From an uncultured Gammaproteobacteria bacterium (GTDB lineage: Bacteria; Patescibacteriota; Microgenomatia; Daviesbacterales; UBA10151), in assembly GCA_964504985.1 (NCBI GenBank), contig CAZDFU010000003.1:822-64821 (forward strand): DNA of 64,000 nt, read 5' to 3'. The first letter of the stretch is position 1. Each line of letters starts with the position of its first letter. The translations under genes and the position numbers were made by a program. The notes below the pieces were generated by a model, which worked only from the letters and a program-made list of their open reading frames with translations, made no database searches and was not told where the DNA came from. Positions 1 through 57,026 of this stretch are shown here, one piece after another.

Positions 1-1313
1 CTCCATACAAAGTCAGGGCTACAGTCCTTGGGATTGGGGTGGCTGTCATGGTTAAAAAATGTGGGATCTTGGCTTTGGAGCGCAAAAGTGAACGCTGCTT
101 GACTCCAAACCTTTGCTGCTCATCAATGATCACAAGCCCTGCATTTTTAGTATCTAATTTAGAAGAAAGTAAGGCATGGGTACCTACTATGATATTAGGG
201 GAAAGGGCCAAGCGTGAAGGGTGAAGGTTTTTTACTTTACCCTTTCCGGTTCCCCCTTTCCCCTTAGTAAACTTCCTGCTTCCGGTATATATAGCAACAT
301 GAATTCCAAATTTTGATAAAAGGTTTGTTAAAGTATTGTAATGTTGAAAAGCCAATATTTCTGTTGGGGCCATATAGATTGTTCTAAATCCATTTAGATT
401 GGTAAGGTAGGCTATTATAGCTGCCACCACTGTTTTGCCTGAGCCCACTTCTCCCTGAACCAACCTGTTCATGGGCTGTCCTTTTTTAAGGTCTTTTATA
501 ATTTCCCCAATAACCTTAAGTTGAGCTTTGGTTAATTTAAATGGTAAAGATTTAATAAATTTATCCAAAATTTGTGCGTCAACCTTAAAGGTTGCAACTG
601 AAATTTTTTTCTGCCATTTTACCCTGGCAGCTTGAGTTGCTAAAGTTACATAAAAAAGCTCATCAAAGCCTAACCTTTCCCTAGCTTTTTCTGCCTCAGC
701 CCAGTTATTTGGTAAGTGGATTTTGCTTAGTGCTTCAGGCAAAGACAACATTTTACCTTTGATAACTTCTGGTAAAGGGTCTTCAATTTGATTAATAACC
801 TTAGGAAGCAAGTCATTTATTTTTGTCAAAAGCCATTTAGAAGTAAGCCCTGCTGTTTCAGGATAAACAGCCACCAATTTTCCAGTGTGCAAAGACACCT
901 GCAAAGACACCAGGGGTGTTTTTTCCCATTTGGGCATGATAATAGAAAGTTTATTTTTATATTTGGTTAATTTTCCTGAGATCTGCAGCCTATCCCCTAC
1001 CTGGATTTGTTTACTCAGCCAGCTTTGGTTAAACCAGGTTAATTCAACTGGAGAGGTGCCATCATTAAAAATAGCTTTGGTTAAAATTTTTCTGGATCTT
1101 GTATAGATATTTTTAATAGACCAGATTTCTCCTTTTAAGGTAACCACCTGTCCAATCTGGGCATCTTTAATAGAGGTTTTTTGAGAAAAATCATCATAGC
1201 GGAAAGGAAAATGGTAAATTAAATCCTTTACAGTTAAAAGGTTAAGCCTTTCTAATTTATAAGATAAAGATGGACCAATTCCAGCAAGGCTTTTTAAAGG
1301 GGTATTTAAATCC
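1..1313 (-). CDS. recG: ATP-dependent DNA helicase RecG (partial; C-terminus runs off window start)
   Basis: Minus-strand translation starts MDLNTPLKSLAGIGP...HFPFRYDD (RecG wedge N-terminus). Walker A GEVGSGKT, motif II IIDEQQRFGV, MTATPIPRT. No stop before window edge. Confidence 0.8.
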
Positions 1314-1347
1314 ATGAGGGAATTATATTACTAAGTGGAAAACAAAA

Positions 1348-3123
1348 CTATCTTTTAAAAAGAGTCTGTTTCACAATTTGTCTGGTTGATTGCCAATAAT
1401 CTTTAACTAAATCAGAAGCATAAGGATTTCCTTTAGTTGGTATTAACATCCAATCAGGAAGTTTTCCCTGCTGGGCTTCTTTAATAACTGTTGGGTTATC
1501 CCTTTGAATATCTGGATTATCTTTTATATTGTGAACTCTGATAACTCCTCCATCCCCAAAAAAAGGGTCATGAAATACATGCATTTGATTTTTATTTATT
1601 TCTGGAGTATGAGATTCAACTTTTCCAGCTGCCAGTGATTTGCCAAAGGCACCAGCTAATCCTCCTAAAAACTGCCAACTTCTGCTTAATAAATTAGTAT
1701 CAAAATCAGTTTGTATATTTTTGGAATCTATCTCTCCTTTTATAAAGTTTAAGACCTTGATCATAAATAAAGGATCTTTTTTAGCTTTTTCTCTGATTTT
1801 TTGACTTAAAGTCTCCAGAACCTCATTTTTTCTGTAACTTCTTTCATCCTCTTTGCCTCCTGGATTTTTATCTTCTGCCAATATATATCTCATAAGATCT
1901 GAGGTATTTATATCTCTGGTTCCTTTAGGAATATATTCTTCCCCATATTCAATACCATCTAACCTAAAGCTTGCAGTATCATGATCTTTAGGAATGGTTA
2001 AACTTAATTTACCATCAACAAGCTGATCAATTGCATTTTTTAATACAACATCCTTCATGACAATCTGGAAATCAGAAGACAAACCAGTTATTCTTTCGCA
2101 AATATTTCCCATTAGATCAAAGCCACCCTTTTTATAAATACTTCTGACCCTTTGTGTTTCCATTAAGTCATCTGGGAAACGTCTTTCCAGCTCAGGGACT
2201 CTAATATCACGGCTTAAATGAATTACACCTATTTCACCAGTGTTCATATCGTAAGATAATATTGTAGGTGCCCCGCTATATTGTTCGTATGTATCGCCGT
2301 GTTCTTCACTATAACCGAAGATAACCAAATTTATTCTATTTTCATTTAGCTCTTTATCAACACGGTGATAATATTCAGGGTCCTCTTTTTCCTTCTGTGC
2401 GCGTTTTCTCCTAGCTTCTTCCACAAAGGGCTTAATAATTTCTATAAAAAGGTTTAATTTCTCAGGAGATGGAGTATTTTCAGGGTTTGGGAGGTTGATT
2501 GGAGTGCGGGTAACTGTTGGGGTTTTTGTATCAATACGTTCTTGAGGTAAGGTATCTCTGAGGATTTTTGCTCCAACAGTTGCTGCTGTTCCCATTGCTG
2601 CAACTTTTAAAAATTTTCTTCTGCTTAAATTTCCAGTTTTCCTGTCAAATTTTAATTTCTCAAGTTCCTGTTCAAGTAGTCTTAAAGCAGCATATTTTCC
2701 AAATAGAAGCTGCATTTTATCTACTAAATCCAAACGTAGATTAGGATCTCTAAGAATAGCTGTGTGCATTCTGTCAGCTGCCCACCCTTTTTCAGGAATT
2801 CTTCCTCCTACAGCTATAACCTGAGCTCTTCTGATAATTTCATAAGCAATTTTAGCTTCCCTCTTTGGTACCAGAGCTTGAGTTGCATCCCATAACCTGT
2901 CAGGGTCAACACTATTTTTTCCTGAGGCTTCTGTTATAAAATTGCGTTCTCTTTCTATTTCCCCGGGAGGTTGGTTAATTTTATCAACGACAGTTTTTAA
3001 TTTATTTCCCAATGTATTTGCTAAATAAAGGCTTTCTTTTCTGTCTAAACCTTTTAAAACTTCTAAATTTCCAACAAATGCTCTTTCAACAGGTGAAACA
3101 GGTGGAGCTAATCCTTCAGTCAT
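1348..3123 (-). CDS. Membrane protein: conserved N-terminal cytoplasmic domain, internal RRKFLK+hydrophobic segment, LCP (LytR-CpsA-Psr)-like extracytoplasmic domain
   Basis: N-terminal ~170 aa paralogous to N-terminus of downstream PP2C ORF. SRRKFLKVAAMGTAATVGA TM/Tat-like segment. RINLVIFGYSEEHGD...GVIHLSRDIRV...GGFDLMGNICERITGLSSDFQIVMKDVVLKNAIDQLVDG resembles LCP family core. Confidence 0.55.
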   Translation of the reverse strand: MTEGLAPPVSPVERAFVGNLEVLKGLDRKESLYLANTLGNKLKTVVDKINQPPGEIERERNFITEASGKNSVDPDRLWDATQALVPKREAKIAYEIIRRAQVIAVGGRIPEKGWAADRMHTAILRDPNLRLDLVDKMQLLFGKYAALRLLEQELEKLKFDRKTGNLSRRKFLKVAAMGTAATVGAKILRDTLPQERIDTKTPTVTRTPINLPNPENTPSPEKLNLFIEIIKPFVEEARRKRAQKEKEDPEYYHRVDKELNENRINLVIFGYSEEHGDTYEQYSGAPTILSYDMNTGEIGVIHLSRDIRVPELERRFPDDLMETQRVRSIYKKGGFDLMGNICERITGLSSDFQIVMKDVVLKNAIDQLVDGKLSLTIPKDHDTASFRLDGIEYGEEYIPKGTRDINTSDLMRYILAEDKNPGGKEDERSYRKNEVLETLSQKIREKAKKDPLFMIKVLNFIKGEIDSKNIQTDFDTNLLSRSWQFLGGLAGAFGKSLAAGKVESHTPEINKNQMHVFHDPFFGDGGVIRVHNIKDNPDIQRDNPTVIKEAQQGKLPDWMLIPTKGNPYASDLVKDYWQSTRQIVKQTLFKR

Positions 3124-5465
3124 ATTGATTGATCTGGTATGATTTCTTCAAGCAGGTTGTTGGAAAGATTTTTGCCATAGTTAATTTTGAGTCCTGCTTT
3201 TTGGGCTAAGTCTTCAAGATAATCTTTTTTATGCTGTTCTATCAGGTTGTTTAGTTTAAGATAAGTAATTGTTGTTTTGATTCCATTTTTAAAAGCCTGA
3301 ATTATTTCCTCTTGAGTTGACTGAGGATTTCGTAAAATACTGATATATTCTATTGCTGCATTATAATATTCATTTAGAGCTTTATCTTGGAGAGGAATAA
3401 AAGAACGATCTGCATCGGCTTCTTTTATAATTCTATCAATGGTAGAAGATTCATCCTCATTACTGCTTTGACCTTCCTGAATGCCCTTCATATAATTTGA
3501 AAGGCTTTCCTGTAAATCCTGTGGGGCAGAGGCAAACATTCTTTTTAACAGTGCTATTTGCTGATCTGAGGGTGGTTTTTCGGCTGAGTAGTTCCATCTT
3601 TCAAATGGGAACCTGAAAGAGTCCAAATTATTACTATGCTTATTTTCTATGACAAAAGTGACAATACTTTCATCTTCCGCTAAATTAAGAACCTGGCTTA
3701 ATTCTGCTTCAAGATCTATTTTTTCATTCTCCCGGTTCTCTTGTTCAGTAACCGTTTCCTCTTTTGGTGTTACTGCTACTAATTGACGGAGTCTTAATAC
3801 AATGTCACTTACCCTTGCTCTTACATTTTCAGGTTCTTCTATCAATTCATCTGCTGGAAGAGCGGTATTAGATCCTTCAACAATGTAGTAGATTCTTCCA
3901 TCCCCAGAAGTACCTGCAATGCCTGTTACTTGAACAGGAATATCTGAACCAGCGTTTTTCCAAATCATTCGTCTGGGTACAAATTCTGTAGCTGGATTGG
4001 TAGTTTCAGGTTCTGTAGGGACAGGATATGTTAGAGGTTCAATTGTAGTTTCTTCTGGTTTTGCCAGTCCAACTAAATCTCTCTCATCTGGGATTGTTTC
4101 TTCAATTGAAGCTGGCTCCCCAGGTGTTGGTTGGTTTGGGGCGGGTTCAATTTTTACCTTTTTCCCTTTTACCAATTCCTCAATTTTAGCAACTGCAAGG
4201 CCAATATCATCTGTCCCGCCTGCATTTTGGGCTTTCTTAATGAGCTCTCTAACAGCATCCTCAGGATTTTTGCTTTTAGATAAAATTTTGGCAATTGTAT
4301 TATCCGGCAATGGTCCCCAAAGGCCGTCTGTACAAAGAAGGATCTGGTCTCCTTTTTCAAGCCTGTAAGGACCGTGTACTTTATCACTTCTGACGTCCCG
4401 TAAATCAGGTTCAACACCAATGGCCTCAGTAATAAAATTTTGTGCAGCCCTGGGATCTGTCCTTTCTCTTTCAGAGTGATCCGTTGTTAACCTGTTTAAC
4501 GCGCCTTTTCTTAAGAGGTATACTCTGCTATCTCCCGCGTGGGCTATATATAACTCATGCCCTTGAATTATGGCAACAACAAGTGTAGTGCCCATTCTTT
4601 CTGATTGCTCTGGTTTGTATACTGCCTTATTAGCTTTATTTAGAGCATTTACTAAGAATTCAGGGGGAGATACCATGTCTTCTTGTGCAAATTTGTAAAG
4701 TACTTGTTCAATTGCTGTATTGCTGGCTATCTCTCCTGATCTAAGTCCTCCCACACCATCAGCTGCTGCAAGTATAGTCCCTTTGGCTAAGTTTCTTATT
4801 TTTTCCTCTGTAAACGGGGCAGCCTCAGGAGTATCTGGGTGCACATAACCAACACTATCCTGGTTTATAGAGCGTTCTGTACCTCTAACTTTACTTGCAA
4901 ATAGGTCTATTTTTGCAAAGGGTTCTAGTTCTACCATCCCCTCTTCTTCCGGGGTTGTGACCTCATCCATTATTTTTAAAAGCAAAGGTAAGGCAGCATG
5001 TTGACCAAACAGTAGCTGCCTTTGATTTAATAAGTCTAAACGGTAATTTTCTGGATCAGAGATTAGAGTTTGATGAATTTTTTCAGCATTCCATTCCTCA
5101 CCTTCAGGAATCTTGCCTCCTACTGCCATTACCTGAGCTTTTCTTACAGTCTGATAAGCTATTTCAGCTTGATTTTTAGGATACAATGTATGAGTTATTA
5201 CCCAAAGCTCATCTGGATCATTTATATCTACAATGTCAGTAATCTCTGGCTTTCTTTTCCTTCCCAACCCCAGAAAACCTTTTTTATTCCGTGAATCTAT
5301 TTTATTTCTAACATAATCATATTCTCTTTTGTCCTCCTCTGGGGTTTTATAAGAAGCATCGCCTGCTTGTTTTAATTCTTCAGCCAGCATGTTTGATATT
5401 CTGGTAATTTGATCTGGAGTTTGGACAGTTAAGCTTTCCGGGATTTGAGACGGTATTTCTCGCAT
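3120..5465 (-). CDS. PP2C-family (PPM/SpoIIE-like) Ser/Thr phosphatase with N-terminal shared domain and long C-terminal uncharacterised domain
   Basis: LAAADGVGG, MGTTLVVAII..LYIAHAGDSRVYL, LLCTDGLWG are PPM motifs. N-terminal block ELWVITHTLYPKNQAEIAYQTVRKAQVMAVGGKIPE matches RLWDATQALVPKREAKIAYEIIRRAQVIAVGGRIPE of upstream ORF. 4-nt overlap with upstream gene. Confidence 0.7.
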   Translation of the reverse strand: MREIPSQIPESLTVQTPDQITRISNMLAEELKQAGDASYKTPEEDKREYDYVRNKIDSRNKKGFLGLGRKRKPEITDIVDINDPDELWVITHTLYPKNQAEIAYQTVRKAQVMAVGGKIPEGEEWNAEKIHQTLISDPENYRLDLLNQRQLLFGQHAALPLLLKIMDEVTTPEEEGMVELEPFAKIDLFASKVRGTERSINQDSVGYVHPDTPEAAPFTEEKIRNLAKGTILAAADGVGGLRSGEIASNTAIEQVLYKFAQEDMVSPPEFLVNALNKANKAVYKPEQSERMGTTLVVAIIQGHELYIAHAGDSRVYLLRKGALNRLTTDHSERERTDPRAAQNFITEAIGVEPDLRDVRSDKVHGPYRLEKGDQILLCTDGLWGPLPDNTIAKILSKSKNPEDAVRELIKKAQNAGGTDDIGLAVAKIEELVKGKKVKIEPAPNQPTPGEPASIEETIPDERDLVGLAKPEETTIEPLTYPVPTEPETTNPATEFVPRRMIWKNAGSDIPVQVTGIAGTSGDGRIYYIVEGSNTALPADELIEEPENVRARVSDIVLRLRQLVAVTPKEETVTEQENRENEKIDLEAELSQVLNLAEDESIVTFVIENKHSNNLDSFRFPFERWNYSAEKPPSDQQIALLKRMFASAPQDLQESLSNYMKGIQEGQSSNEDESSTIDRIIKEADADRSFIPLQDKALNEYYNAAIEYISILRNPQSTQEEIIQAFKNGIKTTITYLKLNNLIEQHKKDYLEDLAQKAGLKINYGKNLSNNLLEEIIPDQSI

Positions 5466-5474
5466 AGTTTTCCT

Positions 5475-5801
5475 TTAGTTTAATTTTTGTGGATTTTGTT
5501 TTAAGTCTGTAACAACCTTTTGCAGCTCCTGTTCCAGCTGTTCTGCTAGAAATGGAATTTGGGAGGCATATTCTTCTATTTTTTCCTTCATTTGGGGGCT
5601 GTCAGCAGAAAGATCTTTTAAAGAAGAAAGCTGTTCTTCATTTAAATTATCAACAATAACATCAATAATTACCCCATCCAAATATGTTCTAATCTTTTCA
5701 GATAAAGGTATTCTTTGATCTTCTGGGAGACTGGTAAAACCTGGTGAAGCAAGCACTTCTTTAACTAAATTATCTAAATATTGGTTAATCTTTTGATCCA
5801 T
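5475..5801 (-). CDS. Hypothetical small acidic coiled-coil protein (108 aa)
   Basis: ORF in operon position between 521-aa and PP2C genes; no recognised motif. Confidence 0.4.
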   Translation of the reverse strand: MDQKINQYLDNLVKEVLASPGFTSLPEDQRIPLSEKIRTYLDGVIIDVIVDNLNEEQLSSLKDLSADSPQMKEKIEEYASQIPFLAEQLEQELQKVVTDLKQNPQKLN

Positions 5802-5802
5802 T

Positions 5803-7368
5803 TTATTTTTGTGCTATTTTTGTTATCACATCTTTTACTAAACCAAACTTCAAAGGTTCTCCTGGGGGTAACATTCTTGCATCTACTCCTTGCATTAAGC
5901 CCCATTCTGGAACTTTAAATCCTTGTCTTTCAGCTAATGCAAAGGATACCTTAAAAACGTTCTGATTAGTAGGTTCTACCCCAATAGATTCTAAATATTT
6001 AGCAGTTGTATCCCAGATATTTGACTCCTTTTCTAATAGTACTTCATCAGGTGCAGAAGCTATATTTTCTGGAATCTGAAGTTGGGATTCAGGAGCAGGA
6101 GGTTGTTGTAGTGTTCCATCTGGAGGTTGTGCTGGTGTTTCTCCAGATATACCTGTAGCAGGGGTTTGTGGTTGGGCAGGAGAAGGAGTTTCAAGTGCAG
6201 CTGTATCTGGAGAAGATTCTATAACTTGCCCAGTTTGGGGTACCTGGGTGGCAGGCGCTGGACTTGGTTCTACTCCAGGTACACTAGCAGGTGTTTCTGA
6301 AGGAATAGGAGCGGAGGCTGGTGCTGGAGGAGGAGCATAAGCAGGTTCAGGCATTTTAGCTGGTGCAGGAGATGAGGCTGGCTGTGGAGCAACAGCTTGA
6401 GCAGCTTCAGGTGAAGCTGTAGGGGCAGCAGTTGCTGTGGAGGATTCTCCAAAACTTTGCTGTACTTGGTTAACCTGCTCAGGGACTTGTGGCAACCTGA
6501 TCTCAGGTGCCTTAATTTCTGGTAATTCAACTTTAGGCATGTTGATTTGAGGTAGTTGAACTTCGACACTTTTAATTGTTTGTCCAGGAATAGATTTAAC
6601 ATTTTCCCAGACGCTTTTTGCTGTAGTTGCTCCGGAAGAAGCAGTTTCCCGGACTGCCCCAACAACTGCTTTACTGGCTGCTGCCACTTGTTCTTGTATC
6701 CACTCATTTTCTAAGGCTAAACTAATAACAGTATTGGCAGCCACACCACCTACTGCTCCCATAGCAGCTCCTTTTAAGCCTGCCATGGCAATTGCTCTGC
6801 CGTCTTTAATCTTTAATTTATGTTTTAATTCTCCAACAAGATTAGCCTGATAAGTGGTTTCATTATAATTTCTGCGCTGGCGCATGTACTCTTTTGCTAC
6901 TCCAGAGATTCCACCTCCAGCAGCACCCAAAATTGCCATTTCTACCACCCCAACACCAGTCATGCTGGTGGCAATTTTTAAACCTGTTTTAAATGTTCCA
7001 GCTGCTACTGCTCCAACAGCTGCATCTGCTAACATATCTGATAATTTCTGGCCGAATACTCTTTTCTCACCCAAATTTTGAACTGTTTTTTTGGTGATAA
7101 CAGCCATTTCTGCAATATTGGGTTTTCTTGCAGAAAACTTTTCTGAAAGATTGGAAAAAGCATTTCTTATTGGGATTGAGCTTAAGAATTCATTAACTTT
7201 TGATGCTGCCTCACCTATTTTTTTTCTTGGGCTTTCTGGGGCGTTACCTCTTTGGTTCCAGGGGATTCTATTAGGATTTGGTCCTCTTGCAGGGCCCGAA
7301 TCTGTGTTAGCTTCCCGTTGGGGCATTCCCCATGAATTTCCTTCAGGCATATGAGTTAATTTTCTCAA
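5803..7368 (-). CDS. Hypothetical protein with Gly/Ala-rich hydrophobic core and Pro/Ala/Ser-rich low-complexity region
   Basis: 521-aa ORF. Disordered N-terminus, AAVGAVAAGTFKTGL...AILGAAGGGISG hydrophobic segments, PAPASAPIPSETPASVPGVEPSPAPAT low complexity. Stop overlaps start of next gene. Confidence 0.5.
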   Translation of the reverse strand: MRKLTHMPEGNSWGMPQREANTDSGPARGPNPNRIPWNQRGNAPESPRKKIGEAASKVNEFLSSIPIRNAFSNLSEKFSARKPNIAEMAVITKKTVQNLGEKRVFGQKLSDMLADAAVGAVAAGTFKTGLKIATSMTGVGVVEMAILGAAGGGISGVAKEYMRQRRNYNETTYQANLVGELKHKLKIKDGRAIAMAGLKGAAMGAVGGVAANTVISLALENEWIQEQVAAASKAVVGAVRETASSGATTAKSVWENVKSIPGQTIKSVEVQLPQINMPKVELPEIKAPEIRLPQVPEQVNQVQQSFGESSTATAAPTASPEAAQAVAPQPASSPAPAKMPEPAYAPPPAPASAPIPSETPASVPGVEPSPAPATQVPQTGQVIESSPDTAALETPSPAQPQTPATGISGETPAQPPDGTLQQPPAPESQLQIPENIASAPDEVLLEKESNIWDTTAKYLESIGVEPTNQNVFKVSFALAERQGFKVPEWGLMQGVDARMLPPGEPLKFGLVKDVITKIAQK

Positions 7369-7502
7369 AGATCAAAGAGTAAGTCAAATTTTTAAACAGA
7401 TAAAAGAAGAGGCAGGAAAGAGAAGATCAAAATGGATATTCCTGCAATTATAGATAAAATGATCCAGACTATTTTAAATTTTTTGTTATACATATAAATT
7501 TT

Positions 7503-8624
7503 CTAGGTGTGAGTTGTTAGTTTCTCTATTTCCTCCAAAGCTGCCTTTCTTTTTGGGTCTTCAAAATAGCTTCTAACTGGTTCAAGTTTTTCAATTATCC
7601 ATTCTGCCACAGCTTTTTTTAAATCCTGAGGGTGAAGCTTTTTTTCAGCATAATCTTTTTCCAGCTCCTCATATGAGGAATAGCTTAAATTTCCACCCCA
7701 TCTTTCATCTCTGTTAACTTCTAAAGTAGTTTTTGAATAAAATATTAAATACCTTGTCCAGTTTAAAATTGGATTTCCTTCAATAATCCCTTCTGGAGCA
7801 TAAGCATCATTTATTTTTTTCCTTATTTCCTCTTCTGTGTCATGGATAGATATACCACTGCCAGGTTTAGATTTGCTCATTTTATTTTTCATAGCTGCTT
7901 CATCAGCTTCCCCGCCGCTGTCTGCTGGTCCTGATAAACTAAGCAAAATTGGGTGATGTATGGCTACAGGTTTTATTTGATTGCCTTTAATATCTTTTAA
8001 GGGGTTTGTTTTAACCTGCATGGCAGCGTCTTTGGCAATCACATGTACCTTTCTTTGGTCAATTCCTGCATGAGCTATATTTGCTCCAAGTAAAAATATA
8101 TCTGCTGCCTGCATAATAGGATAAAACAGTTTATCTGTAGGCATTGAGTCGTCTGATTGATCTCTGCCCATGATGGTGATAGACCTTTTGGTTCTTGCCA
8201 GGGTAGTGGTTTTTCCTATTTCCAAAAGAGTCAGCCAAAAATCAGGGTTTTTTGCATATGTTTCTGAAGTCAGTTTAAAGATTAGTTTTTCAGGATCCCC
8301 TCCTATTAAGGTAAATAAAGCCTTGATAGCTTCTTCAAAATAATCTTTGGCTATTTTTTTAATAATCTCTAAATCGCCTCCTAATTTATCATTAATGGCT
8401 GAATGCAGATCTGCCAGCCAAATTAAAGTTTCTGCCCCGGCATCTTGCAGATCTTTAACCTTTAAAAGAGTAAATAAGTAGCCTAAATGCAGTTTTCCTG
8501 AAATCTCAAAACCAATATAATGTTTTAAGGGAGTATCTGAATTAATAAGTTCTTTTAATTCGTCTTCAGTTAAAACTTCCTCCAGGTTCCTGGTGATTAA
8601 ATTAAATTTTTCCTCATTGTTCAT
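7503..8624 (-). CDS. tyrS: Tyrosyl-tRNA synthetase, archaeal/eukaryal type
   Basis: HYIGFEISGKLHLGY (HIGH-like), KMSKSKPGSGI (KMSKS). C-terminal KLHPQDLKKAVAEWIIEKLEPVR closely matches M. jannaschii TyrRS ELHPMDLKNAVAEELIKILEPIR. Confidence 0.85.
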   Translation of the reverse strand: MNNEEKFNLITRNLEEVLTEDELKELINSDTPLKHYIGFEISGKLHLGYLFTLLKVKDLQDAGAETLIWLADLHSAINDKLGGDLEIIKKIAKDYFEEAIKALFTLIGGDPEKLIFKLTSETYAKNPDFWLTLLEIGKTTTLARTKRSITIMGRDQSDDSMPTDKLFYPIMQAADIFLLGANIAHAGIDQRKVHVIAKDAAMQVKTNPLKDIKGNQIKPVAIHHPILLSLSGPADSGGEADEAAMKNKMSKSKPGSGISIHDTEEEIRKKINDAYAPEGIIEGNPILNWTRYLIFYSKTTLEVNRDERWGGNLSYSSYEELEKDYAEKKLHPQDLKKAVAEWIIEKLEPVRSYFEDPKRKAALEEIEKLTTHT

Positions 8625-8649: not shown

Positions 8650-10224
8650 ATGTCTAAAAATATTACTAAATTAACTTCTGCATTGGTGGCAGCTTATGAT
8701 CAGGTTTACTCATCTTCTGATGACAGGACTATCTCTGTGAACCCTTTGATAGCAGAACTTGCTACCTGGTATGAAAAGTTCCGTACATCTATGGATTACA
8801 GGGAGGATGAAGTAATCTTAAGAGCTGCAATTGAGAGGATTTTAAGAAGACGTTTGCTTTTAAGGGGAGGAGGCGGCGAAGCGGTTGCTGCTCCCTTAAT
8901 CCGGGAATTGATTTGGGCCCGCTATTTTCCTGATGCTTTTGTCCCCCAGTCCGCTGTTGAGAAAGTTACTGATATTATCAATCTTTACCTTAATCTTGAG
9001 AAAAAAATTAATGAGCATCACAGGATCAACCATGGCCAGGTTTATGATTGGATTGTTCATCTTCTTTCTTCTGAGATTGAGGATATTTTAAAGCCTGGTA
9101 ATGAAAAAGATTTGATGGCCCATTACATCTATCAGATTTTTAAAGACAGGATTACCATAAGTGATGATTCAGAAGAAACAAAAGATATTCAGGTGTTTAT
9201 TGCTGTGAGGCGTTCTTATGCTAATGATGATTTGGCACTTTTGCGGTTTAGATTGTTCAGGCAATATTTTGGCAAAGTTACTTCAGAGAATGTAGACACA
9301 ATTGCCAAGCTCTTTCTTGAGGCAAAACATAAATTTGAAATGCATTTTAAATATCCTGCCAAAGATAAGATCTATAACTACATAAAAAAAGAAATGATCC
9401 CCTTTTTGATTTTGGATGATGTTTTCCAAAAAAACCGCGGTAAAGTTGGCCAGCTTGTTTTGGATGAAGACCATCTGGGTACAGAAGTATTGGCAGCTTG
9501 TAATACCCGGTATAAGACTATATCTGGTAAGGTACGAAGGGCAATTGTCAGAAGTGTTATTTTTATCTTTATGACTAAGGCTGTTTTTGCTTTATTTGTG
9601 GAAGGAGCGTTTGAAAGGTTTTTATATGGCAAGATTATTTGGTCATCAATTGTTTTAAATACTTTAACTCCTCCGGCTTTGATGATTTTGGTGGGATCTT
9701 TAATTCAAACTCCCAATAGAGAAAACTCCTTTAGGATTCTTAAAAAAATAAATACTGTTTTGTATGATGAGAATCCTTCTCTTGATGCTCCTTTAATTGT
9801 GAGGAAAAAACCCAGTAAAACTGATCCTTTGCTTTGGAGTTTATTTATTATACTTTGGTTAACTACTTTTGCCTTAAGTTTTGGGGGGATAATTTTTATA
9901 TTAAATAAGTTTAAGATTAATCCCCTGTCCCAGGTGGTTTTTGTGTTCTTTCTGGCAATTGTTTCCTTTGTTTCATTTAGGATTAACAGAACAGCCCATA
10001 TGTATATATTAAAGGTAAGAAAAGATAATTTAGGTTCATTATTTTTTGACTTTTTCTTTATGCCTTTTATACAAGTAGGAAGAAAATTAACTCAAGCAGT
10101 TTCACAAATAAATATTATTCTTTTTATTTTTGATTTTATAATTGAGACTCCCTTTAAGGGTATAGCTGCTTTTTTTGAACAATGGTTACTCTTTTTAAGA
10201 ACCCAAAGAGAAAAGTTAGATTAG
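8650..10224 (+). CDS. Hypothetical polytopic membrane protein (524 aa)
   Basis: Soluble N-terminal half followed by multiple hydrophobic helices (FIFMTKAVFALFV, LWSLFIILWLTTFALSFGGIIFIL, VVFVFFLAIVSFVSF). Confidence 0.5.
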   Translation: MSKNITKLTSALVAAYDQVYSSSDDRTISVNPLIAELATWYEKFRTSMDYREDEVILRAAIERILRRRLLLRGGGGEAVAAPLIRELIWARYFPDAFVPQSAVEKVTDIINLYLNLEKKINEHHRINHGQVYDWIVHLLSSEIEDILKPGNEKDLMAHYIYQIFKDRITISDDSEETKDIQVFIAVRRSYANDDLALLRFRLFRQYFGKVTSENVDTIAKLFLEAKHKFEMHFKYPAKDKIYNYIKKEMIPFLILDDVFQKNRGKVGQLVLDEDHLGTEVLAACNTRYKTISGKVRRAIVRSVIFIFMTKAVFALFVEGAFERFLYGKIIWSSIVLNTLTPPALMILVGSLIQTPNRENSFRILKKINTVLYDENPSLDAPLIVRKKPSKTDPLLWSLFIILWLTTFALSFGGIIFILNKFKINPLSQVVFVFFLAIVSFVSFRINRTAHMYILKVRKDNLGSLFFDFFFMPFIQVGRKLTQAVSQINIILFIFDFIIETPFKGIAAFFEQWLLFLRTQREKLD

Positions 10225-10274: not shown

Positions 10275-11027
10275 ATGAGTGCAGAAAAACAACCTTTTAG
10301 AATTAATGGTGATGAAATTTCTGGTTTAACAGAATTAGATAAAGGCATCTTAGGATCTATTTTAGAAGCAAAAAAAGCAGGAAAAATAGTTACCAGAGCA
10401 GAGCTAGCACCTCAGTTTTATAACCCAAGAGACCCCGGTCCTGTGATAATGGGAAATTTTAATGGAGCCCTGCAAAGGCTGAGAGAAAGATTAAACGGTG
10501 TTTCTTCTCCGTGGAGTATTGTTTCTCAAAGAGGAGGAATTTTGGATTTAGCCAGAGCCCCAAAAGAAATACCAGACCAATTAAAACCTACGCCTCCAGA
10601 GTTTGCAGTAACCAGATATATCACAGAATGGTTGGGAAGCAGGTCTGGTAGGCTATATTATGACCGGATTCATGCTGATGATGATATCAAGATAGCTTTT
10701 CAATTTGTAGATGAAAGAATTGTACCCCGGGAAAATGGTTTGCCTGGATTTAAGGTTTATTATTTAACCAGAAAAGAATTAAGTGATGCTTATGAGGGTG
10801 GGTTTAAGAAATTGAAACAAGTTTCCTCGGATGAGCATATGAGAAGAGCGTGGGATGAAAAAACAACAGAGTTGTGGAATAACATCCAAAGGCTTAAGAG
10901 CTTGCTGAAAACAGAGACCGATGAAAAGTTTTTAGGAGAGATCAAGAGGCGGATTAGAAAAGCAGAATCAGATTATATATCAAGACATGAATGGCGCACT
11001 AACGGACAACCTTATATTATCTTTTAA
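10275..11027 (+). CDS. Hypothetical protein (250 aa)
   Basis: Clean ORF; no recognised motif. Confidence 0.45.
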   Translation: MSAEKQPFRINGDEISGLTELDKGILGSILEAKKAGKIVTRAELAPQFYNPRDPGPVIMGNFNGALQRLRERLNGVSSPWSIVSQRGGILDLARAPKEIPDQLKPTPPEFAVTRYITEWLGSRSGRLYYDRIHADDDIKIAFQFVDERIVPRENGLPGFKVYYLTRKELSDAYEGGFKKLKQVSSDEHMRRAWDEKTTELWNNIQRLKSLLKTETDEKFLGEIKRRIRKAESDYISRHEWRTNGQPYIIF

Positions 11028-11058: not shown

Positions 11059-12123
11059 TTAGATTGATTCCTGAATAGGCCTGAGAGGGAGTTCAAGGAA
11101 AAAGGTTGACCCATGCCCTATCTTGCTTTTGACCCATAATTTTCCTTTATGATGACGGATTATCTGCTGGCAGATAAACAGTCCAAGCCCCAATCCCTCT
11201 GATTTGCTTCTTACAACATCATGGGCTCTATAAAATCTGCTGAATATTTGTTTTTGGTCTTTTTTGGCTATCCCCAATCCAAAATCTCTAACACTTAAAC
11301 TTACTTTTCCTTTTGTTTCTTTTAATTTGACTATTATTTTTTTCTTTTGGGGGGAATATTTTATAGCATTTGTTAAAAGATTGGTGATAATTTGTCCAAT
11401 TCTATAGCGGTCTCCATAAAGCATCTGTTTTGATAGCCCCTTAAATTCTATAGTTCTATTTTTAGCAATGATTCTTTGATGAGCAATCACCTCTGTAGCC
11501 AGATCAGTCATGTTAAAGAATGAGTCTGAATAAGTGAATTTACCTATCTCTATGCTGGCTATATCCAGCAAATCATTAATAAGTTCCAGCATTTTATTTG
11601 TAGCTTCAGCAATAGAATGCCCGTATGAGGTAGTTTTGTCATTACCTTTTGCCTTTTCTACTATTAAATTAGAAAAACCAATCACTGCGGCCAAAGGGTT
11701 TTTTAGTTCGTGAGCCATAAAAGCTATAAACTCATCTTTCTGCTCTTCCATTTCAAATCTGGCTTCCAAAGCAATGCTGATGATAACCCCTTCCACAATA
11801 AATATTGCTGTCAGCACCAAATCCCCAACAAATGGGGATGTAGAAATATCATATTTAAGAAAGATAAAATAAGTTAATGTTGCTGATAAAAGGGTAGCAA
11901 AAATCCCAGGTCTTAATCCTCCATACCAGGAGGAAACAGCCACAATGAATGAAACCATTAAAAAAGCTGTATTATGACCCAAAACATCATGGAAATAATT
12001 TTTAAGAAAAAAAACAATTGTGATCAGTAAGACAGGTAGGCCATAGCGTTTAATCCTGTTTCTTTTTTGGAAATGGGTAAGATGAACCAGTAATACTTTT
12101 ATTTTAACCCATAATTCTTCCAT
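11059..12123 (-). CDS. Sensor histidine kinase (membrane-anchored, HisKA + HATPase_c)
   Basis: N-terminal TM helices. H-box FMAHELKNPLAAV, N-box LLTNAIKYS, G-boxes DFGLGI and GLGLGLFICQQII. No adjacent response regulator. Confidence 0.8.
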   Translation of the reverse strand: MEELWVKIKVLLVHLTHFQKRNRIKRYGLPVLLITIVFFLKNYFHDVLGHNTAFLMVSFIVAVSSWYGGLRPGIFATLLSATLTYFIFLKYDISTSPFVGDLVLTAIFIVEGVIISIALEARFEMEEQKDEFIAFMAHELKNPLAAVIGFSNLIVEKAKGNDKTTSYGHSIAEATNKMLELINDLLDIASIEIGKFTYSDSFFNMTDLATEVIAHQRIIAKNRTIEFKGLSKQMLYGDRYRIGQIITNLLTNAIKYSPQKKKIIVKLKETKGKVSLSVRDFGLGIAKKDQKQIFSRFYRAHDVVRSKSEGLGLGLFICQQIIRHHKGKLWVKSKIGHGSTFFLELPLRPIQESI

Positions 12124-23669: not shown

Positions 23670-24602
23670 ATGGCTAGTTTAGAAAGCCCTGATCTTTCAA
23701 TTATTATCCTAAATTATAATGTTAAGGAGCTATTATTAAAATGTTTGGAGTCTATTTTTAAAGACCCTAATTCTAAAAACTGGCAGGTTATTGTGGTGGA
23801 TAATGCTTCAGAGGATGGTTCTGCAGAAGCTGTTAAGAAAAAATATCTGAATTCCCAAATCCAAGTTGAAGTTGTGGAAAGCAAGGAAAATCTGGGCTTT
23901 GCAGGAGGTAATAATTTAGGAGTAAAATATGCCAAAGCTCAGGCTGTTTTATTTTTAAATCCAGATACTTTGGTTGTGGGAGATGCTGTCTCTAAATCTT
24001 TGGAGTTTTTGTTATCTAACCCAGATATAGGAGCCCTAACTTGCAGAGTGGAGCTGCCTGATGGGAAACTAGATTACTCCTGTCACAGAGGTTTCCCTAC
24101 TCCCTGGAATTCTTTTGCTTATTTTAGTGGTCTTTCTAGAGTTTTTCCCCGTTTCCGGCTGTTTTCAGGATACACTGCCTCTTATCAAAATATTAAAACC
24201 ATACATGAGATAGATTGTTTAACTGGAGCATATCTTATGGTTAGAAAAATTGCCGGTGATCAAATAAATTGGTGGGATGAAGATTATTTTTGGAATGGTG
24301 AAGATATTGAATTTTGTTACTCTTTAAAAGAAAAAGGTTGGAAAATATTTTTTTATCCAGAGGCAAAAATTATTCATTATAAAGGTTCATCCTCTGGTCT
24401 CTGGTCTTCTAAAGCAGTTTCTGTTGAGAAAGAGAAAATGTTTACCAGCGCTTCTCATGCAGCTTCAGCCATGAGGATTTTTTATATGAAGCATTACTTT
24501 AAAAAATACCCGGTAGTTTTAAGGGAATTTATTTTATGGGGAATTAAATCTTTGGAACACTTCAGAAAGTTTAAAATCAGAGTGGGGTTAAGGTATAAGT
24601 GA
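23670..24602 (+). CDS. Family 2 glycosyltransferase
   Basis: IIILNYNVKELLLKCLESI...VVDNASEDGS; DxD region; GT-A fold. Confidence 0.8.
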   Translation: MASLESPDLSIIILNYNVKELLLKCLESIFKDPNSKNWQVIVVDNASEDGSAEAVKKKYLNSQIQVEVVESKENLGFAGGNNLGVKYAKAQAVLFLNPDTLVVGDAVSKSLEFLLSNPDIGALTCRVELPDGKLDYSCHRGFPTPWNSFAYFSGLSRVFPRFRLFSGYTASYQNIKTIHEIDCLTGAYLMVRKIAGDQINWWDEDYFWNGEDIEFCYSLKEKGWKIFFYPEAKIIHYKGSSSGLWSSKAVSVEKEKMFTSASHAASAMRIFYMKHYFKKYPVVLREFILWGIKSLEHFRKFKIRVGLRYK

Positions 24603-24603
24603 C

Positions 24604-47889: not shown

Positions 47890-47893
47890 TTTA

Positions 47894-50970: not shown

Positions 50971-51019
50971 TTGAAGAATTATATCACTTTTTCTGCTAAA
51001 ATATGCTTGGGTCAAAAAT

Positions 51020-51103
51020 GCCCCGATGCTGGAACTGGTAGACAGGCTGGCCTCAGAAGCTAGTGCCAGAAATGGCGTGGGAGTTCGAATCTCCCTTGGG
51101 GCA
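51020..51103 (+). tRNA. tRNA-Leu (anticodon CAG), class II
   Basis: GCCCCGATGCTGGAACTGGTAGACAGGCTGGCCTCAGAAGCTAGTGCCAGAAATGGCGTGGGAGTTCGAATCTCCCTTGGGGCA. Confidence 0.85.
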
Positions 51104-51212
51104 CCCAATTTTAACTAATCAACCTCAGAACTATCCTTAAATTAAATGTAAGTAGGCTTACAAACTTTTTGTAACTTATCTGACAGAAGGTATCAGCCAA
51201 AAAAGGTATCCT

Positions 51213-56942: not shown

Positions 56943-57026
56943 TAACAAATCAGCCGGGATGCTGGAATCGGTAGACAGGCTACCTTGAGGTGGTAGTGCC
57001 CGCAAGGGCGTGGAGGTTCAAGTCCT
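56943..57026 (+). tRNA. tRNA-Leu (anticodon GAG), class II
   Basis: GCCGGGATGCTGGAATCGGTAGACAGGCTACCTTGAGGTGGTAGTGCCCGCAAGGGCGTGGAGGTTCAAGTCCTCTTCCCGGCA. Confidence 0.85.

What the first reader, a model, noticed from the sequence alone, without database searches (positions are those of the whole stretch)
1348..7368. Operon pairing a PP2C phosphatase and an LCP-like membrane protein that share a paralogous N-terminal domain
Four co-directional, tightly packed genes (521 aa Pro/Ala-rich; 108 aa; 781 aa; 591 aa).

The last two begin with a ~120-aa homologous domain (D-x-L-W...P-K-x-x-A-x-I-A-Y...R-x-A-Q-V-x-A-V-G-G-x-I-P-E). It is followed in one by a PP2C phosphatase and in the other by a TM segment with a twin-arginine-like RRKFLK motif plus an extracytoplasmic LCP-like domain.

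The shared cytoplasmic module linked to cell-wall polymer attachment (LCP) and Ser/Thr dephosphorylation suggests a novel envelope-signalling unit.
Basis: partly seen in the sequence, partly recalled or inferred. Interest (0 to 1): 0.55.

Follow-up and report, generated by a model that had tools for sequence, protein, structure and literature searches.

The report
Shared docking domain links wall enzymes, phosphatase
An uncultivated, small-genome bacterium carries a conserved four-gene operon in which a protein phosphatase and a cell-wall polymer ligase begin with the same, previously undescribed 165-residue helical domain; this domain probably plugs interchangeable envelope enzymes into one complex.

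Summary
Four tightly packed minus-strand genes (7368..1348) encode:
- a ~515-aa Pro/Ala-rich membrane protein;
- a 108-aa helical protein;
- a 781-aa Stp1-type PP2C phosphatase;
- a 591-aa protein with a twin-arginine-like anchor and a divergent but genuine LCP ectodomain (Foldseek: top 33 PDB hits all LCP; hhalign 99.9% to canonical LCP domains).

The last two share an N-terminal module: BLASTP 45% identity over 104 aa, E=3e-25; about 165 aa by profile. The module folds confidently as all-alpha (pLDDT 86). It has no relative in Pfam, NCBIfam, PDB or BFVD.

The module is rare: 22 cluster representatives among 1.84 billion proteins. In relatives it heads PP2C, pseudo-PP2C and, through the same RR-anchor, LCP, GH5 and Amidase_3 enzymes. 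These genes lie beside the 5xx-aa and 108-aa gene pair in every locus whose contig is long enough to show the neighbours. Where both flanks are held, the site is tyrS–recG. The PP2C–LCP pairing is frequent but not obligate; the invariant core is 5xx + 108 + at least one module-bearing gene.

Best reading (inferred): the module is a cytoplasmic docking or regulatory domain of a lineage-specific envelope complex in Microgenomates-like bacteria. "Signalling unit" is only partly supported, because no kinase or substrate was identified.

It is a new domain family and cassette built from known enzyme kinds. Interest is moderate.

The parts
5803..7368 (-). 'p5xx': 521-aa ORF from TTG 7368 (the probable true start is ATG 7350, giving 515 aa). 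It has a basic N-terminal region, two or three Gly/Ala-rich weakly hydrophobic helices around a conserved EYxRQRRxYNE loop, a long Pro/Ala/Thr-rich spacer, and a conserved C-terminal domain of about 80 aa. It is an invariant cassette partner.
   Evidence: ORF. No Pfam, NCBIfam, PADLOC or PHROG hit. Kyte-Doolittle peaks of 1.64 and 1.59 at residues 201 and 139. Homologues lie next to the 108-aa gene in L002, L010, L011/L012, L015, L016, L017, L020 and L021.
5475..5801 (-). 'p108': 108-aa helical protein with no hydrophobic segment. It is the most conserved cassette component (mean column identity 71% over 10 homologues) and an invariant partner.
   Evidence: Only 6 cluster hits among 5.8 billion clusters in the word-indexed search. 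No family match.
3120..5465 (-). 781-aa cytoplasmic phosphatase gene: N-module, then a Stp1-type PP2C domain, then a Pro-rich linker and a helical C-terminal region of about 300 aa with unknown function.
   Evidence: No TM peak. The C-terminal region is shared with the L016 PP2C (E 2.8e-20).
4944..5450 (-). N-module copy 1 (PP2C protein, residues ~6-174): all-alpha, a helical hairpin (H17-38, H42-62) plus a 5-helix core (86-170).
   Evidence: Profile match E 1e-55. AF2 pLDDT 86, pTM 0.83. No PDB or BFVD fold match.
4179..4886 (-). PP2C catalytic domain (residues ~194-429) with the metal-binding motifs RxxNQD, DGVGG, GDSR, TDG and GGTDD intact.
   Evidence: Pfam PP2C 57.8 bits. NCBIfam Stp1/IreP 159 bits, below its equivalog cut-off of 230. 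PDB 2pk0 and 1txo alignments.
1348..3123 (-). 591-aa membrane protein gene: N-module, then a twin-arginine-like signal anchor, then a divergent LCP ectodomain. Its ATG overlaps the PP2C stop codon (ATGA).
2638..3120 (-). N-module copy 2 (LCP protein, residues ~2-162).
   Evidence: BLASTP against copy 1: 45% identity over 104 aa, E=3e-25. Profile E 2e-42.
2560..2631 (-). Twin-arginine-like motif SRRKFLK followed by an Ala/Gly-rich, weakly hydrophobic stretch (residues ~165-188). Presumed signal anchor (N-in, C-out).
   Evidence: Sub-threshold TAT_signal hits. Kyte-Doolittle 1.07. The same RRxFLK-type motif occurs at the same place in most homologues, and the L020 GH5 protein gives a TAT_signal hit.
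1351..2478 (-). Divergent LCP (LytR-CpsA-Psr) ectodomain, about 376 aa, with a family-specific C-terminal extension. It retains the SRD and R-x-x-R-K-N motifs. The canonical N-terminal G-x-D...R-x-D-S motif is replaced by an invariant GY(G/S)EEH.
7392..7493 (-). 33-aa single-TM ORF between tyrS and the cassette (MYNKKFKIVWIILSIIAGISILIFSFLPLLLSV). It is conserved at the same place in five related loci. Whether it belongs to the cassette or to tyrS is undecided.

Best explanation
This is a real, lineage-restricted operon of a low-GC, Gram-positive-type, Microgenomates-like (CPR/Patescibacteria) bacterium.

Shown:
- The operon encodes a weakly hydrophobic membrane protein with a Pro-rich spacer (p5xx), a very conserved small helical protein (p108), an apparently active Stp1-type PP2C phosphatase, and a type-II membrane protein with a divergent LCP glycopolymer-ligase ectodomain.
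- The phosphatase and the LCP protein start with the same ~165-aa all-alpha module, which is a new domain family.
- In relatives the module is the constant head of interchangeable bodies: PP2C, pseudo-PP2C, an unknown cytoplasmic region and, behind a twin-arginine-like anchor, LCP, GH5 and Amidase_3 wall enzymes.
- Module-bearing genes lie next to the p5xx and p108 genes wherever the contig is long enough to show the neighbours. Where both flanks are held, they lie at one chromosomal site between tyrS and recG.

Inferred mechanism:
- The module stays in the cytoplasm and acts as a docking or regulatory domain.
- It recruits whichever enzyme carries it to a common platform made by p108, the membrane protein p5xx, or both.
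- The extracellular enzyme (here LCP, which attaches a lipid-linked glycopolymer to peptidoglycan) is thereby positioned or gated from inside.
- The PP2C is brought to the same platform, where it removes Ser/Thr phosphates from a complex component phosphorylated by a kinase encoded elsewhere.
For: Module homology and rarity:
- establish the homology between the two copies.
- The exhaustive HMMER search found 22 representatives among 1.84 billion (21 without the spurious repeat-protein hit P0034). The module always starts within about the first 90 residues.
- The fold prediction is confident, yet nothing matches in PDB, BFVD, Pfam or NCBIfam.

Architectures:
- Canonical LCP: P0023 at 99 bits, P0027 at 91, P0036 at 75.
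- Combinations: LCP + Amidase_3, GH5 + Amidase_3, PP2C_2.
- A fused module-pseudoPP2C-TM-LCP protein, P0029.

Context:
- p5xx and/or p108 lie adjacent to the module genes in the window, L002, L010, L011/L012, L014, L015, L016, L018 and L020.
- Both tyrS/33-aa ORF and recG flank the cassette in the window, L002, L010, L015, L016 and L020.
- p108 is the most conserved part (71% mean column identity), compared with 35% for the module and 39% for p5xx.
- Module sequences cluster mostly by partner class. PP2C heads group together and enzyme heads group together, even when the ectoenzyme differs: the GH5 head of L014 is closest to the LCP head of L018 at 49%. This indicates an old duplication kept under selection and body-swapping on a constant head.

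Enzymes:
- The PP2C catalytic motifs are intact.
- The LCP fold and homology are established.

Precedents from the literature:
- B. subtilis LCP enzymes were discovered as MreB interaction partners.
- cpsA (an LCP gene) shares an operon with the CpsBCD phosphoregulatory system (PMC7831098).
Against:
- One module-bearing LCP gene (L001/L005) sits away from p5xx/p108, next to an IS1595 transposase. The same genome does carry a cassette on another contig (L011).
- L017 has p535 + p109 but no module gene in 6.3 kb. Its neighbour is an Amidase_3 with a different, unrelated N-terminal domain. The platform is therefore not specific to this module.
- No Hanks kinase was found in the window, so the phospho-control step has no identified writer or substrate.
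- The anchor segment is only weakly hydrophobic (Kyte-Doolittle 1.07), so the topology is predicted and not secure.
- The conserved Thr41 (81%) that could have been a phospho-site lies at the N-cap of helix 2 in the model. That is a purely structural explanation for its conservation.
Confidence: 0.5

Rival explanations
1. Direct phospho-signalling pair. The two module copies heterodimerise, so the PP2C is tethered to the cytoplasmic head of the LCP (or GH5/amidase) protein. It dephosphorylates that head or a neighbour, switching the extracellular enzyme on or off. p5xx and p108 are accessory.
For: - PP2C and a TM enzyme, both with the module, are adjacent in the window, L002, L014 and L018.
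- P0029 is a Rosetta-stone fusion of module, pseudo-PP2C, TM and LCP.
- In L002 the two heads are each other's closest relatives at 42%.
- The PP2C looks catalytically competent.
Against: - Complete tyrS-recG cassettes exist with only PP2C (L016), only LCP (L015), or a module protein without PP2C (L020).
- The PP2C-like part of the fusion has lost its catalytic motifs.
- The window's LCP head lacks the conserved Thr, having Pro52 instead.
- No kinase was found.
Confidence: 0.2
2. Export-control reading. The module is an unusually long n-region of a Tat signal or anchor. It is bound by a dedicated cytoplasmic chaperone (p108, by analogy with TorD/DmsD/NapD-type signal-binding proteins) that holds the folded wall enzymes until export. 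The PP2C copy competes for or regulates that chaperone.
For: - A consensus-like S/T-R-R-x-F-L-K motif with an Ala/Gly-rich, weakly hydrophobic h-region follows the module in most TM-bearing members and in LCP-like homologues with other N-termini.
- p108 is small, helical, cytoplasmic and always adjacent.
Against: - The module also heads proteins with no RR motif or TM: PP2C, the L020 748-aa protein, P0025 and P0033.
- Some TM members have KK or QR instead of RR: P0023, P0036 and P0027.
- TAT_signal scores are below the curated cut-offs.
- No tatA or tatC was seen in the 30 window ORFs of at least 150 aa, between 7.5 and 49.8 kb, that were scanned with Pfam. Six ORFs beyond 49.9 kb were not scanned.
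Confidence: 0.12
3. Polymorphic surface-effector reading. The module is a trafficking domain, in the way LXG or other N-terminal domains serve polymorphic toxins, and p108 is its small helical partner. The module delivers interchangeable wall-active domains (amidase, GH5, LCP) for interaction with, or attack on, a host or competitor cell, in keeping with an episymbiotic CPR lifestyle.
For: - A constant N-terminal head carries swapped C-terminal enzymatic bodies, including peptidoglycan amidase and GH5.
- A conserved ~100-aa helical neighbour is always present.
- There is a weak T7SS_signal hit (E 0.013) to the p5xx C-terminus.
Against: - An internal signal anchor lies between head and body, which argues for a resident membrane protein.
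- PP2C and LCP are not toxin-like.
- No immunity-gene pattern was seen.
- There is one cassette at a fixed housekeeping site (tyrS-recG).
- No LXG or WXG match was found, and p108 has no Trp.
- PADLOC and PHROGs are silent except for the PP2C domain.
Confidence: 0.06
4. No functional coupling. The shared head is just the residue of a tandem 5'-end duplication or gene fusion, and the operon groups unrelated functions.
For: The paralogues are adjacent, which is what a tandem duplication produces. The function of the module is unknown.
Against: - The two copies have diverged to 36-45% identity yet keep the same invariant positions (D85, L87, A100, Y104, G154) and near-invariant ones (W88 93%, R108 85%, Q111 74%, N147 96%, Q150 93%) across 27 sequences.
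- Head lineages are maintained across at least 10 loci with different bodies.
- Gene order and chromosomal site are conserved.
Confidence: 0.05

Closest known systems
LCP (LytR-CpsA-Psr) glycopolymer ligases, e.g. S. aureus LcpA/MsrR, B. subtilis TagT/U/V, S. pneumoniae Cps2A
   Same: - Same fold: Foldseek E down to 3.5e-10, with all top 33 PDB hits being LCP.
- Profile homology to canonical LCP domains: hhalign 99.9%.
- Same N-in TM anchor plus extracytoplasmic catalytic domain layout (PMC7831098).
- The Arg-Asp (P/S-R-D) and R-x-x-R motifs are retained.
   Different: - The cytoplasmic part is a folded ~165-aa domain instead of a short tail.
- The anchor looks like a twin-arginine signal.
- The window protein misses the Pfam cut-off (22.6 against 24.6 bits) and the TIGR00350 cut-off (16 against 62).
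- The N-terminal G-x-D / R-x-D-S motif is replaced by an invariant GY(G/S)EEH.
- There is a ~130-aa family-specific C-terminal extension.
Bacterial Stp1/PstP/PhpP-type PP2C (PPM) phosphatases and N-terminally regulated PP2Cs such as RsbU
   Same: PP2C fold and metal-binding motifs are shared, and the best matches are Stp1 (2pk0) and PstP (1txo, 2cm1). From my own knowledge, not tested here: the principle that an N-terminal helical domain of a PP2C docks a partner that controls it, as in RsbU-RsbT.
   Different: - It is below the NCBIfam Stp1 equivalog cut-off (159 against 230 bits).
- The N-terminal module has no fold match in a PDB-wide search, which would include any deposited RsbU N-domain structure.
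- There is a ~350-aa C-terminal extension.
- No adjacent Hanks kinase and no STAS or anti-sigma partner was found.
cpsABCD-type capsule loci (LCP gene cpsA in one operon with the CpsB phosphatase / CpsCD kinase phosphoregulatory system)
   Same: An LCP ligase gene is co-transcribed with a protein phosphatase that tunes late steps of glycopolymer assembly and attachment (PMC7831098).
   Different: From my own knowledge, CpsB is a PHP-type phosphotyrosine phosphatase paired with a BY-kinase. Here the phosphatase is a Ser/Thr PP2C, no kinase is present, and the two proteins share a domain, which has no counterpart in cps loci.
MreB-associated LCP enzymes of B. subtilis, and StkP/PhpP-controlled division-site proteins such as MapZ (functional analogy only)
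   Same: The idea is that wall-polymer ligases are positioned from the cytoplasmic side by a scaffold. LCPs were found as MreB partners (PMC7831098). From my own knowledge, MapZ is a bitopic protein with a cytoplasmic head, a spacer and a wall-facing C-terminal domain, and it is a PP2C/kinase substrate. p5xx has a comparable layout.
   Different: There is no sequence or fold relationship to MreB, MapZ, RodZ or GpsB, and none was detected for p5xx or p108. The analogy is untested.

Membership tests
LCP (LytR-CpsA-Psr) family | LCP alpha/beta fold with a hydrophobic lipid tunnel | tested here: met
   The AF2 model of residues 216-591 (pLDDT 91, pTM 0.89) was searched against PDB with Foldseek. 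Ranks 1-33 are all LCP enzymes, with E from 3.5e-10 to 8e-06, probability 1.00, and TM (target-normalised) up to 0.70. The next hit is at E 0.26. The tunnel itself was not inspected.
LCP (LytR-CpsA-Psr) family | Sequence match to the curated family model at its cut-off (Pfam PF03816, TIGR00350) | tested here: not met
   The window protein scores 22.6 bits against the gathering score of 24.6, and 16.4 against 62.3 for TIGR00350. Homology is nevertheless established by profile methods: hhalign against Pfam-positive LCP domains gives probability 99.9%, E 4.6e-34, and the family profile hits only LCP chains in PDB. Ten of its 18 homologues carry a precomputed PF03816 hit.
LCP (LytR-CpsA-Psr) family | Conserved Arg/Asp residues that bind the pyrophosphate and Mg2+ (e.g. 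TagT R118 and R219; A. oris R128, R149 and R266; PMC7831098) | tested here: inconclusive
   The S-R-D motif (aligned to the P/M-R-D of LcpA and canonical domains) and the D-E-R-S-Y-R-K-N motif (aligned to R-x-x-R-Q-Q) are invariant in the family. The N-terminal G-x-D and R-x-D-S positions are replaced by GY(G/S)EEH and G-A-P-T, and the R-S-R motif by A-E-D. Activity cannot be judged from this.
LCP (LytR-CpsA-Psr) family | N-terminal membrane anchor with an extracytoplasmic catalytic domain | tested here: inconclusive
   There is a single candidate segment at residues 165-188. It follows RRKFLK and is only weakly hydrophobic (Kyte-Doolittle 1.07). The same layout is seen in all homologues. No dedicated topology predictor was available.
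PP2C / PPM Ser/Thr phosphatases | Match to the curated PP2C models at their cut-offs | tested here: met
   PF00481 57.8 bits (cut-off 20.3), PF13672 41.5 (24) and PF07228 33.3 (25). Thirty PDB PP2C chains match at E<=0.01.
PP2C / PPM Ser/Thr phosphatases | Metal-coordinating Asp motifs (RxxxxD, DGxGG, GDSR, (T/S)DG, DN/DD) | tested here: met
   RSINQD, ADGVGG, GDSR, TDG and GGTDD align with the corresponding motifs of Stp1 (2pk0) and PstP (1txo).
Stp1/IreP equivalog (NCBIfam NF033484) | Score at or above the equivalog cut-off | tested here: not met
   159.1 bits against 230. It is the same domain type but not an orthologue-level match, and there are extra N- and C-terminal regions.
Twin-arginine (Tat) signal peptides / signal anchors | S/T-R-R-x-F-L-K motif followed by a moderately hydrophobic h-region | tested here: met
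   The motif reads L-S-R-R-K-F-L-K-VAAMGTAATVGAKIL. Comparable motifs occur in most TM-bearing family members.
Twin-arginine (Tat) signal peptides / signal anchors | Curated model cut-off and N-terminal position | tested here: not met
   PF10518 17.7 against 22.7, and TIGR01409 16.0 against 16.7. The motif lies at residue ~166, behind a folded domain, not at the N-terminus.
Twin-arginine (Tat) signal peptides / signal anchors | TatA/TatC present in the genome | not testable with these tools
   Only 64 kb of the genome is held. No Tat component appeared among the 30 ORFs of at least 150 aa between 7.5 and 49.8 kb that were scanned with Pfam.
LXG/WXG-type polymorphic effector systems | LXG or WXG100 domain match, secretion-system genes, immunity genes | tested here: not met
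   No LXG or WXG100 hit in the 23 module sequences or in p108 at E<=1. p108 has no Trp. The neighbouring genes are tyrS and recG.

The most novel reading that the evidence does not exclude
The module is the cytoplasmic half of a new inside-out control system for extracellular wall enzymes. A PP2C-governed phosphorylation state of the p5xx/p108 platform, or of the module itself, is transmitted through the single Tat-type anchor to switch LCP ligases, amidases and GH5 hydrolases on and off at defined sites. This would give an ultra-small CPR cell a plug-and-play way to coordinate wall-polymer attachment and wall cleavage. It would also include Tat-dependent insertion of proteins that carry a large folded domain N-terminal of the RR motif.
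Probability: 0.15. Interest if true: 0.75.

Novelty: new variant of a known kind. Interest (0 to 1): 0.5.

Why it matters
LCP ligases and wall hydrolases must be controlled in space and time. How that control is exerted from the cytoplasm is poorly understood even in model Gram-positives, and it is unknown in the candidate phyla radiation.

This locus offers a compact, genetically linked set of parts:
- a new ~165-aa domain shared by a phosphatase and by several classes of wall enzyme;
- two invariant unknown partner proteins.

Together they make a specific, testable hypothesis about such control. The locus also adds an uncharacterised domain family, a divergent LCP subfamily with a changed active-site motif, and a possible case of a Tat-type anchor behind a large folded N-terminal domain.

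Two limits apply. The family is very narrow (21 genuine cluster representatives in 1.84 billion proteins). The organisms are uncultivated, so any test must be heterologous.

Tried and rejected
1. The word-indexed search with the two-sequence module alignment found nothing, not even the query itself. The exhaustive HMMER search was needed.
The LCP ectodomain and p108 alignments were used instead.
3. A phospho-Thr site at the conserved 'KTPEQD' was rejected as evidence. The Thr is the N-cap of helix 2 in the model, and it is Pro in the window's own LCP copy.
4. The LysM-like look of the p5xx C-terminal domain was not supported by Pfam, even at E<=10.
5. A relationship of the module to the second ('type B') cytoplasmic N-domain of LCP-like and amidase homologues was rejected: hhalign probability 1.7%.
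6. A defence-system or phage origin was rejected. PADLOC and PHROGs hit only the PP2C domain, and BFVD gives no fold match.
7. No structured RNA lies in the region downstream of the LCP gene. The apparent 'gap' at 1..1347 is the 5' part of recG running off the window.
8. P0034, a 1069-aa repeat protein in the module hit list, matches only profile positions 10-39 in ten repeats and is a spurious low-complexity hit.
9. The exact-sequence look-up of the window's own LCP protein for its source record failed, so the organism is inferred only from named relatives: Ca. Daviesbacteria and Levybacteria.

Full report
**1. What is in the sequence**

Region 1348-7368 holds four co-directional ORFs on the minus strand:

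| Coordinates | Product | Note |
|---|---|---|
| 7368..5803 | 521 aa from a TTG | Homologues begin MPEG/MPEP, so ATG 7350 (515 aa) is the likelier start |
| 5801..5475 | 108 aa | |
| 5465..3120 | 781 aa | |
| 3123..1348 | 591 aa | |

- The gaps between the genes are 1 nt, 9 nt (with an AAGGA ribosome-binding site) and an ATGA start/stop overlap. This is an operon layout.
- Upstream on the same strand lies tyrS (8624..7503), followed by a 33-aa single-TM ORF (7493..7392).
- Downstream, the apparent gap at 1..1347 is the 5' part of recG, which runs off the window.
- GC content is about 36%.
- The wider window carries an F-ATPase operon, a GT2 glycosyltransferase cluster, a class A PBP, MurT/GatD and aminoacyl-tRNA synthetases. 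That is a housekeeping chromosome of a peptidoglycan-bearing bacterium.

**2. The shared N-terminal domain is real**

- BLASTP between the two proteins gives 45% identity over 104 aa, E=3e-25.
- A profile built from 23 family members matches residues ~6-174 of the PP2C protein (E 1e-55) and ~2-162 of the LCP protein (E 2e-42). It matches nothing else in the six-frame translation of the window.

**3. The two enzyme bodies**

*The 781-aa protein* has a bona fide PP2C domain at residues 194-429.
- Pfam PP2C scores 57.8 bits against a cut-off of 20.3.
- NCBIfam Stp1/IreP scores 159 bits, below its equivalog cut-off of 230.
- Stp1 and PstP structures match at E 4e-21 to 1e-18.
- The RxxNQD, DGxGG, GDSR, TDG and GGxDD motifs are intact.
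- It has no hydrophobic segment and carries a ~350-aa C-terminal region of unknown function.

*The 591-aa protein* has an SRRKFLK motif followed by an Ala/Gly-rich, weakly hydrophobic stretch at residues 165-188.
- The Kyte-Doolittle score is 1.07.
- The TAT_signal hits are sub-threshold.

Its ~376-aa C-terminal region narrowly misses the Pfam LCP cut-off (22.6 against 24.6 bits). It is nevertheless an LCP domain, on three lines of evidence:
- The family profile hits only LCP chains in PDB, 7 of 7.
- The AF2 model (pLDDT 91, pTM 0.89) has LCP enzymes as its top 33 Foldseek hits (LcpA, TagV, TagT, TagU, Cps2A, MsrR, BrpA). The best is E 3.5e-10, and the next non-LCP hit is at E 0.26.
- hhalign against Pfam-positive LCP domains gives 99.9% probability, E 4.6e-34.

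The domain is divergent.
- The SRD and R-x-x-R motifs are invariant.
- The canonical N-terminal G-x-D / R-x-D-S motif is replaced by GY(G/S)EEH.
- This ectodomain subfamily occurs in Ca. Daviesbacteria, Ca. Levybacteria, unnamed MAGs and some Chloroflexota. That is the basis for calling the source organism Microgenomates-like; this placement is an inference.

**4. What the module is**

- An exhaustive HMMER search of 1.84 billion cluster representatives found 22 hits at E<=0.001. One of them (P0034) is a spurious repeat protein. In the genuine hits the module always starts near the N-terminus.
- It has no match in Pfam, NCBIfam or PDB sequences.
- AF2 with the 23-sequence alignment gives a confident all-alpha model (pLDDT 86, pTM 0.83). 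The model has a helical hairpin (17-38, 42-62), a low-confidence linker and a five-helix core (86-170).
- Foldseek finds no relative in PDB (best E 1.2, TM at most 0.23) or in BFVD.
- Over 27 sequences, D85, L87, A100, Y104 and G154 are invariant. W88 (93%), R108 (85%), A110 (96%), Q111 (74%), H131 (85%), N147 (96%) and Q150 (93%) are highly conserved. This polar set is a plausible binding surface.
- Thr41 of the 'KTPEQD' motif (81%) sits at a helix N-cap and is Pro in the window's LCP copy. I do not count it as a phospho-site.

**5. Co-occurrence**

The module heads the following bodies:
- PP2C phosphatases (P0020, P0021, P0028, P0037-39, P0022).
- A pseudo-PP2C fused to TM-LCP in one protein (P0029). 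Its catalytic motifs are lost: GDSR has become TSTK and TDG has become SRE.
- Canonical LCP (P0023 at 99 bits, P0027, P0036), LCP + Amidase_3, and GH5 with or without Amidase_3.
- Several cytoplasmic regions of unknown type.

Most TM-bearing members repeat the RR-type motif directly after the module.

Gene neighbourhoods are the most informative result. In every locus where the contig is long enough, module genes lie next to homologues of the 5xx-aa gene, the 108-aa gene, or both. This holds for the window, L002, L010, L011/L012, L014, L015, L016, L018 and L020.

Six loci show both flanks and lie at the same site, tyrS - 33-aa ORF - cassette - recG. Their module content differs:

| Locus | Module-bearing genes |
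|---|---|
| Window, L002 | PP2C + LCP |
| L010 | SpoIIE-like + pseudoPP2C-LCP fusion |
| L016 | PP2C only |
| L015 | LCP only, with two module copies |
| L020 | GH5 + a 748-aa module protein without PP2C |

- The invariant core is therefore p5xx + p108 + at least one module gene, not PP2C + LCP.
- p108 is the most conserved component (71% mean column identity), compared with 35% for the module and 39% for p5xx.
- Module sequences group mainly by partner class, PP2C heads separately from enzyme heads. The GH5 head of L014 is closest to the LCP head of L018 at 49%. This indicates an old duplication and later swapping of ectoenzyme bodies on a constant head plus anchor.

**6. Mechanism**

Shown:
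- homology of the two heads;
- the folds and identities of the PP2C and LCP bodies;
- the architectures of the family;
- conserved synteny.

Inferred:
- The module is cytoplasmic. It precedes the only anchor-like segment and also occurs on soluble PP2C.
- It serves as a docking or regulatory domain that brings its carrier to a platform formed by p108 and/or p5xx.
- p5xx has a basic N-terminus, two or three Gly/Ala-rich helices around a positively charged loop, a Pro/Thr/Ala spacer and a conserved C-terminal domain. That layout resembles bitopic wall-facing organisers.
- In this window the outcome would be positioned or gated attachment of a lipid-linked glycopolymer to peptidoglycan by the LCP domain, with the PP2C erasing Ser/Thr phosphorylation on a complex member.
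- I put this at about 0.5.

Rivals, each detailed in its own section: a direct module-module phospho-switch (0.2), a Tat export-control head with p108 as chaperone (0.12), a polymorphic surface-effector system (0.06), and a meaningless duplication relic (0.05).

Weak points:
- No interaction was tested.
- No kinase or Tat gene was seen in the window.
- One module-LCP gene lies apart from the platform genes, next to an IS element.
- L017 pairs the platform genes with an amidase that carries an unrelated N-domain.

**7. Comparison with known systems**

- The bodies belong to known families: LCP by fold and profile, and PP2C by all tests (see the membership table).
- The nearest functional precedents come from the review PMC7831098. 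One is the cpsABCD loci, which place an LCP gene with a phosphoregulatory system. The other is the MreB-associated LCP enzymes of B. subtilis.
- From general knowledge, PP2Cs controlled through N-terminal docking domains (RsbU) are also relevant.
- None of these has a domain shared between the phosphatase and the wall enzyme, the p5xx/p108 partners, or an RR-type anchor behind a folded domain.
- Literature searches for LCP with PP2C, or for LCP in Patescibacteria, returned nothing relevant.

**8. Verdict**

It is a lineage-restricted envelope cassette with a new shared domain family.
- It is built from known enzyme kinds, so I class it as a new variant of a known kind.
- Interest is 0.5. It would catch the attention of a cell-envelope or CPR specialist and yields concrete experiments. 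The mechanism is still inferred and the family is very narrow.

Noticed in passing
window 7392-7493 (-); L015 3292-3393; L020 6436-6543; also L002 277-387, L010 873-989, L016 32-148: A 33-35-aa single-TM ORF (MYNKKFKIVWIILSIIAGISILIFSFLPLLLSV) is conserved immediately after tyrS and before the cassette in six loci. It is small enough to be missed by gene callers, and its function is unknown.
   Followed up: partly
L017 698-2119 (-); P0009, P0010, P0013, P0016 N-termini: A second cytoplasmic N-terminal domain ('type B', with an ...LRLxxLLGxD... motif) is unrelated to the module (hhalign probability 1.7%). It heads other LCP-like proteins and an Amidase_3, again before an RR-type anchor. The L017 amidase sits next to the p535 + p109 pair. 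The platform genes may therefore serve more than one kind of head.
   Followed up: partly
L010 5458-8235 (P0029): A single 925-aa protein fuses the module, a PP2C-like domain that has lost its catalytic motifs (a pseudo-phosphatase), an RR anchor and an LCP-like ectodomain. The gene before it (836 aa) has the module plus a weak SpoIIE/PP2C_2 match.
   Followed up: yes
L019 472-786 and 752-1153: Two tandem p108 paralogues lie on a short metagenome contig.
   Followed up: no
window 7359-7387 (-): A promoter-like site (TTGACT, 17 nt spacer, TG-extended GAAAAT) ends only 9 nt upstream of the probable ATG start (7350) of the first cassette gene. This would imply a leaderless or near-leaderless transcript. 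It is a consensus match only.
   Followed up: no
window 8650-10224 (+) and 10275-11027 (+): A 524-aa multi-pass membrane protein and a 250-aa protein have no Pfam match. They lie divergent from tyrS and next to a DUF4118-HisKA-HATPase histidine kinase (11059-12123, minus strand). No response regulator was noted beside the kinase.
   Followed up: no
window 47131-49207 (-), 34175-36730 (+), 23670-27269 (+): The window carries a MurT/GatD pair (lipid II amidation), a class A PBP with a C-terminal Big_7 domain, and three adjacent GT2 glycosyltransferases. These are consistent with a Gram-positive-type wall and with a glycopolymer that an LCP enzyme could attach.
   Followed up: no
L001/L005 and L011 (GCA_964551255.1); L003: MAGs titled 'uncultured Gammaproteobacteria bacterium isolate binchicken_...' carry this cassette, an LCP-like subfamily otherwise seen in Daviesbacteria and Levybacteria, and many PIN/PhdYeFM and HicAB toxin-antitoxin pairs. 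The organism name in the record looks like a placeholder or a mislabel.
   Followed up: no
window 51019-51107 and 56953-57037: ARAGORN calls tRNA-Leu(cag) and tRNA-Leu(gag) here. The first overlaps the end of mechanical ORF 49951-51108. The second was not reported by Rfam at gathering score and overlaps the end of ORF 57018-58544. The ORF ends there are probably artefacts.
   Followed up: no
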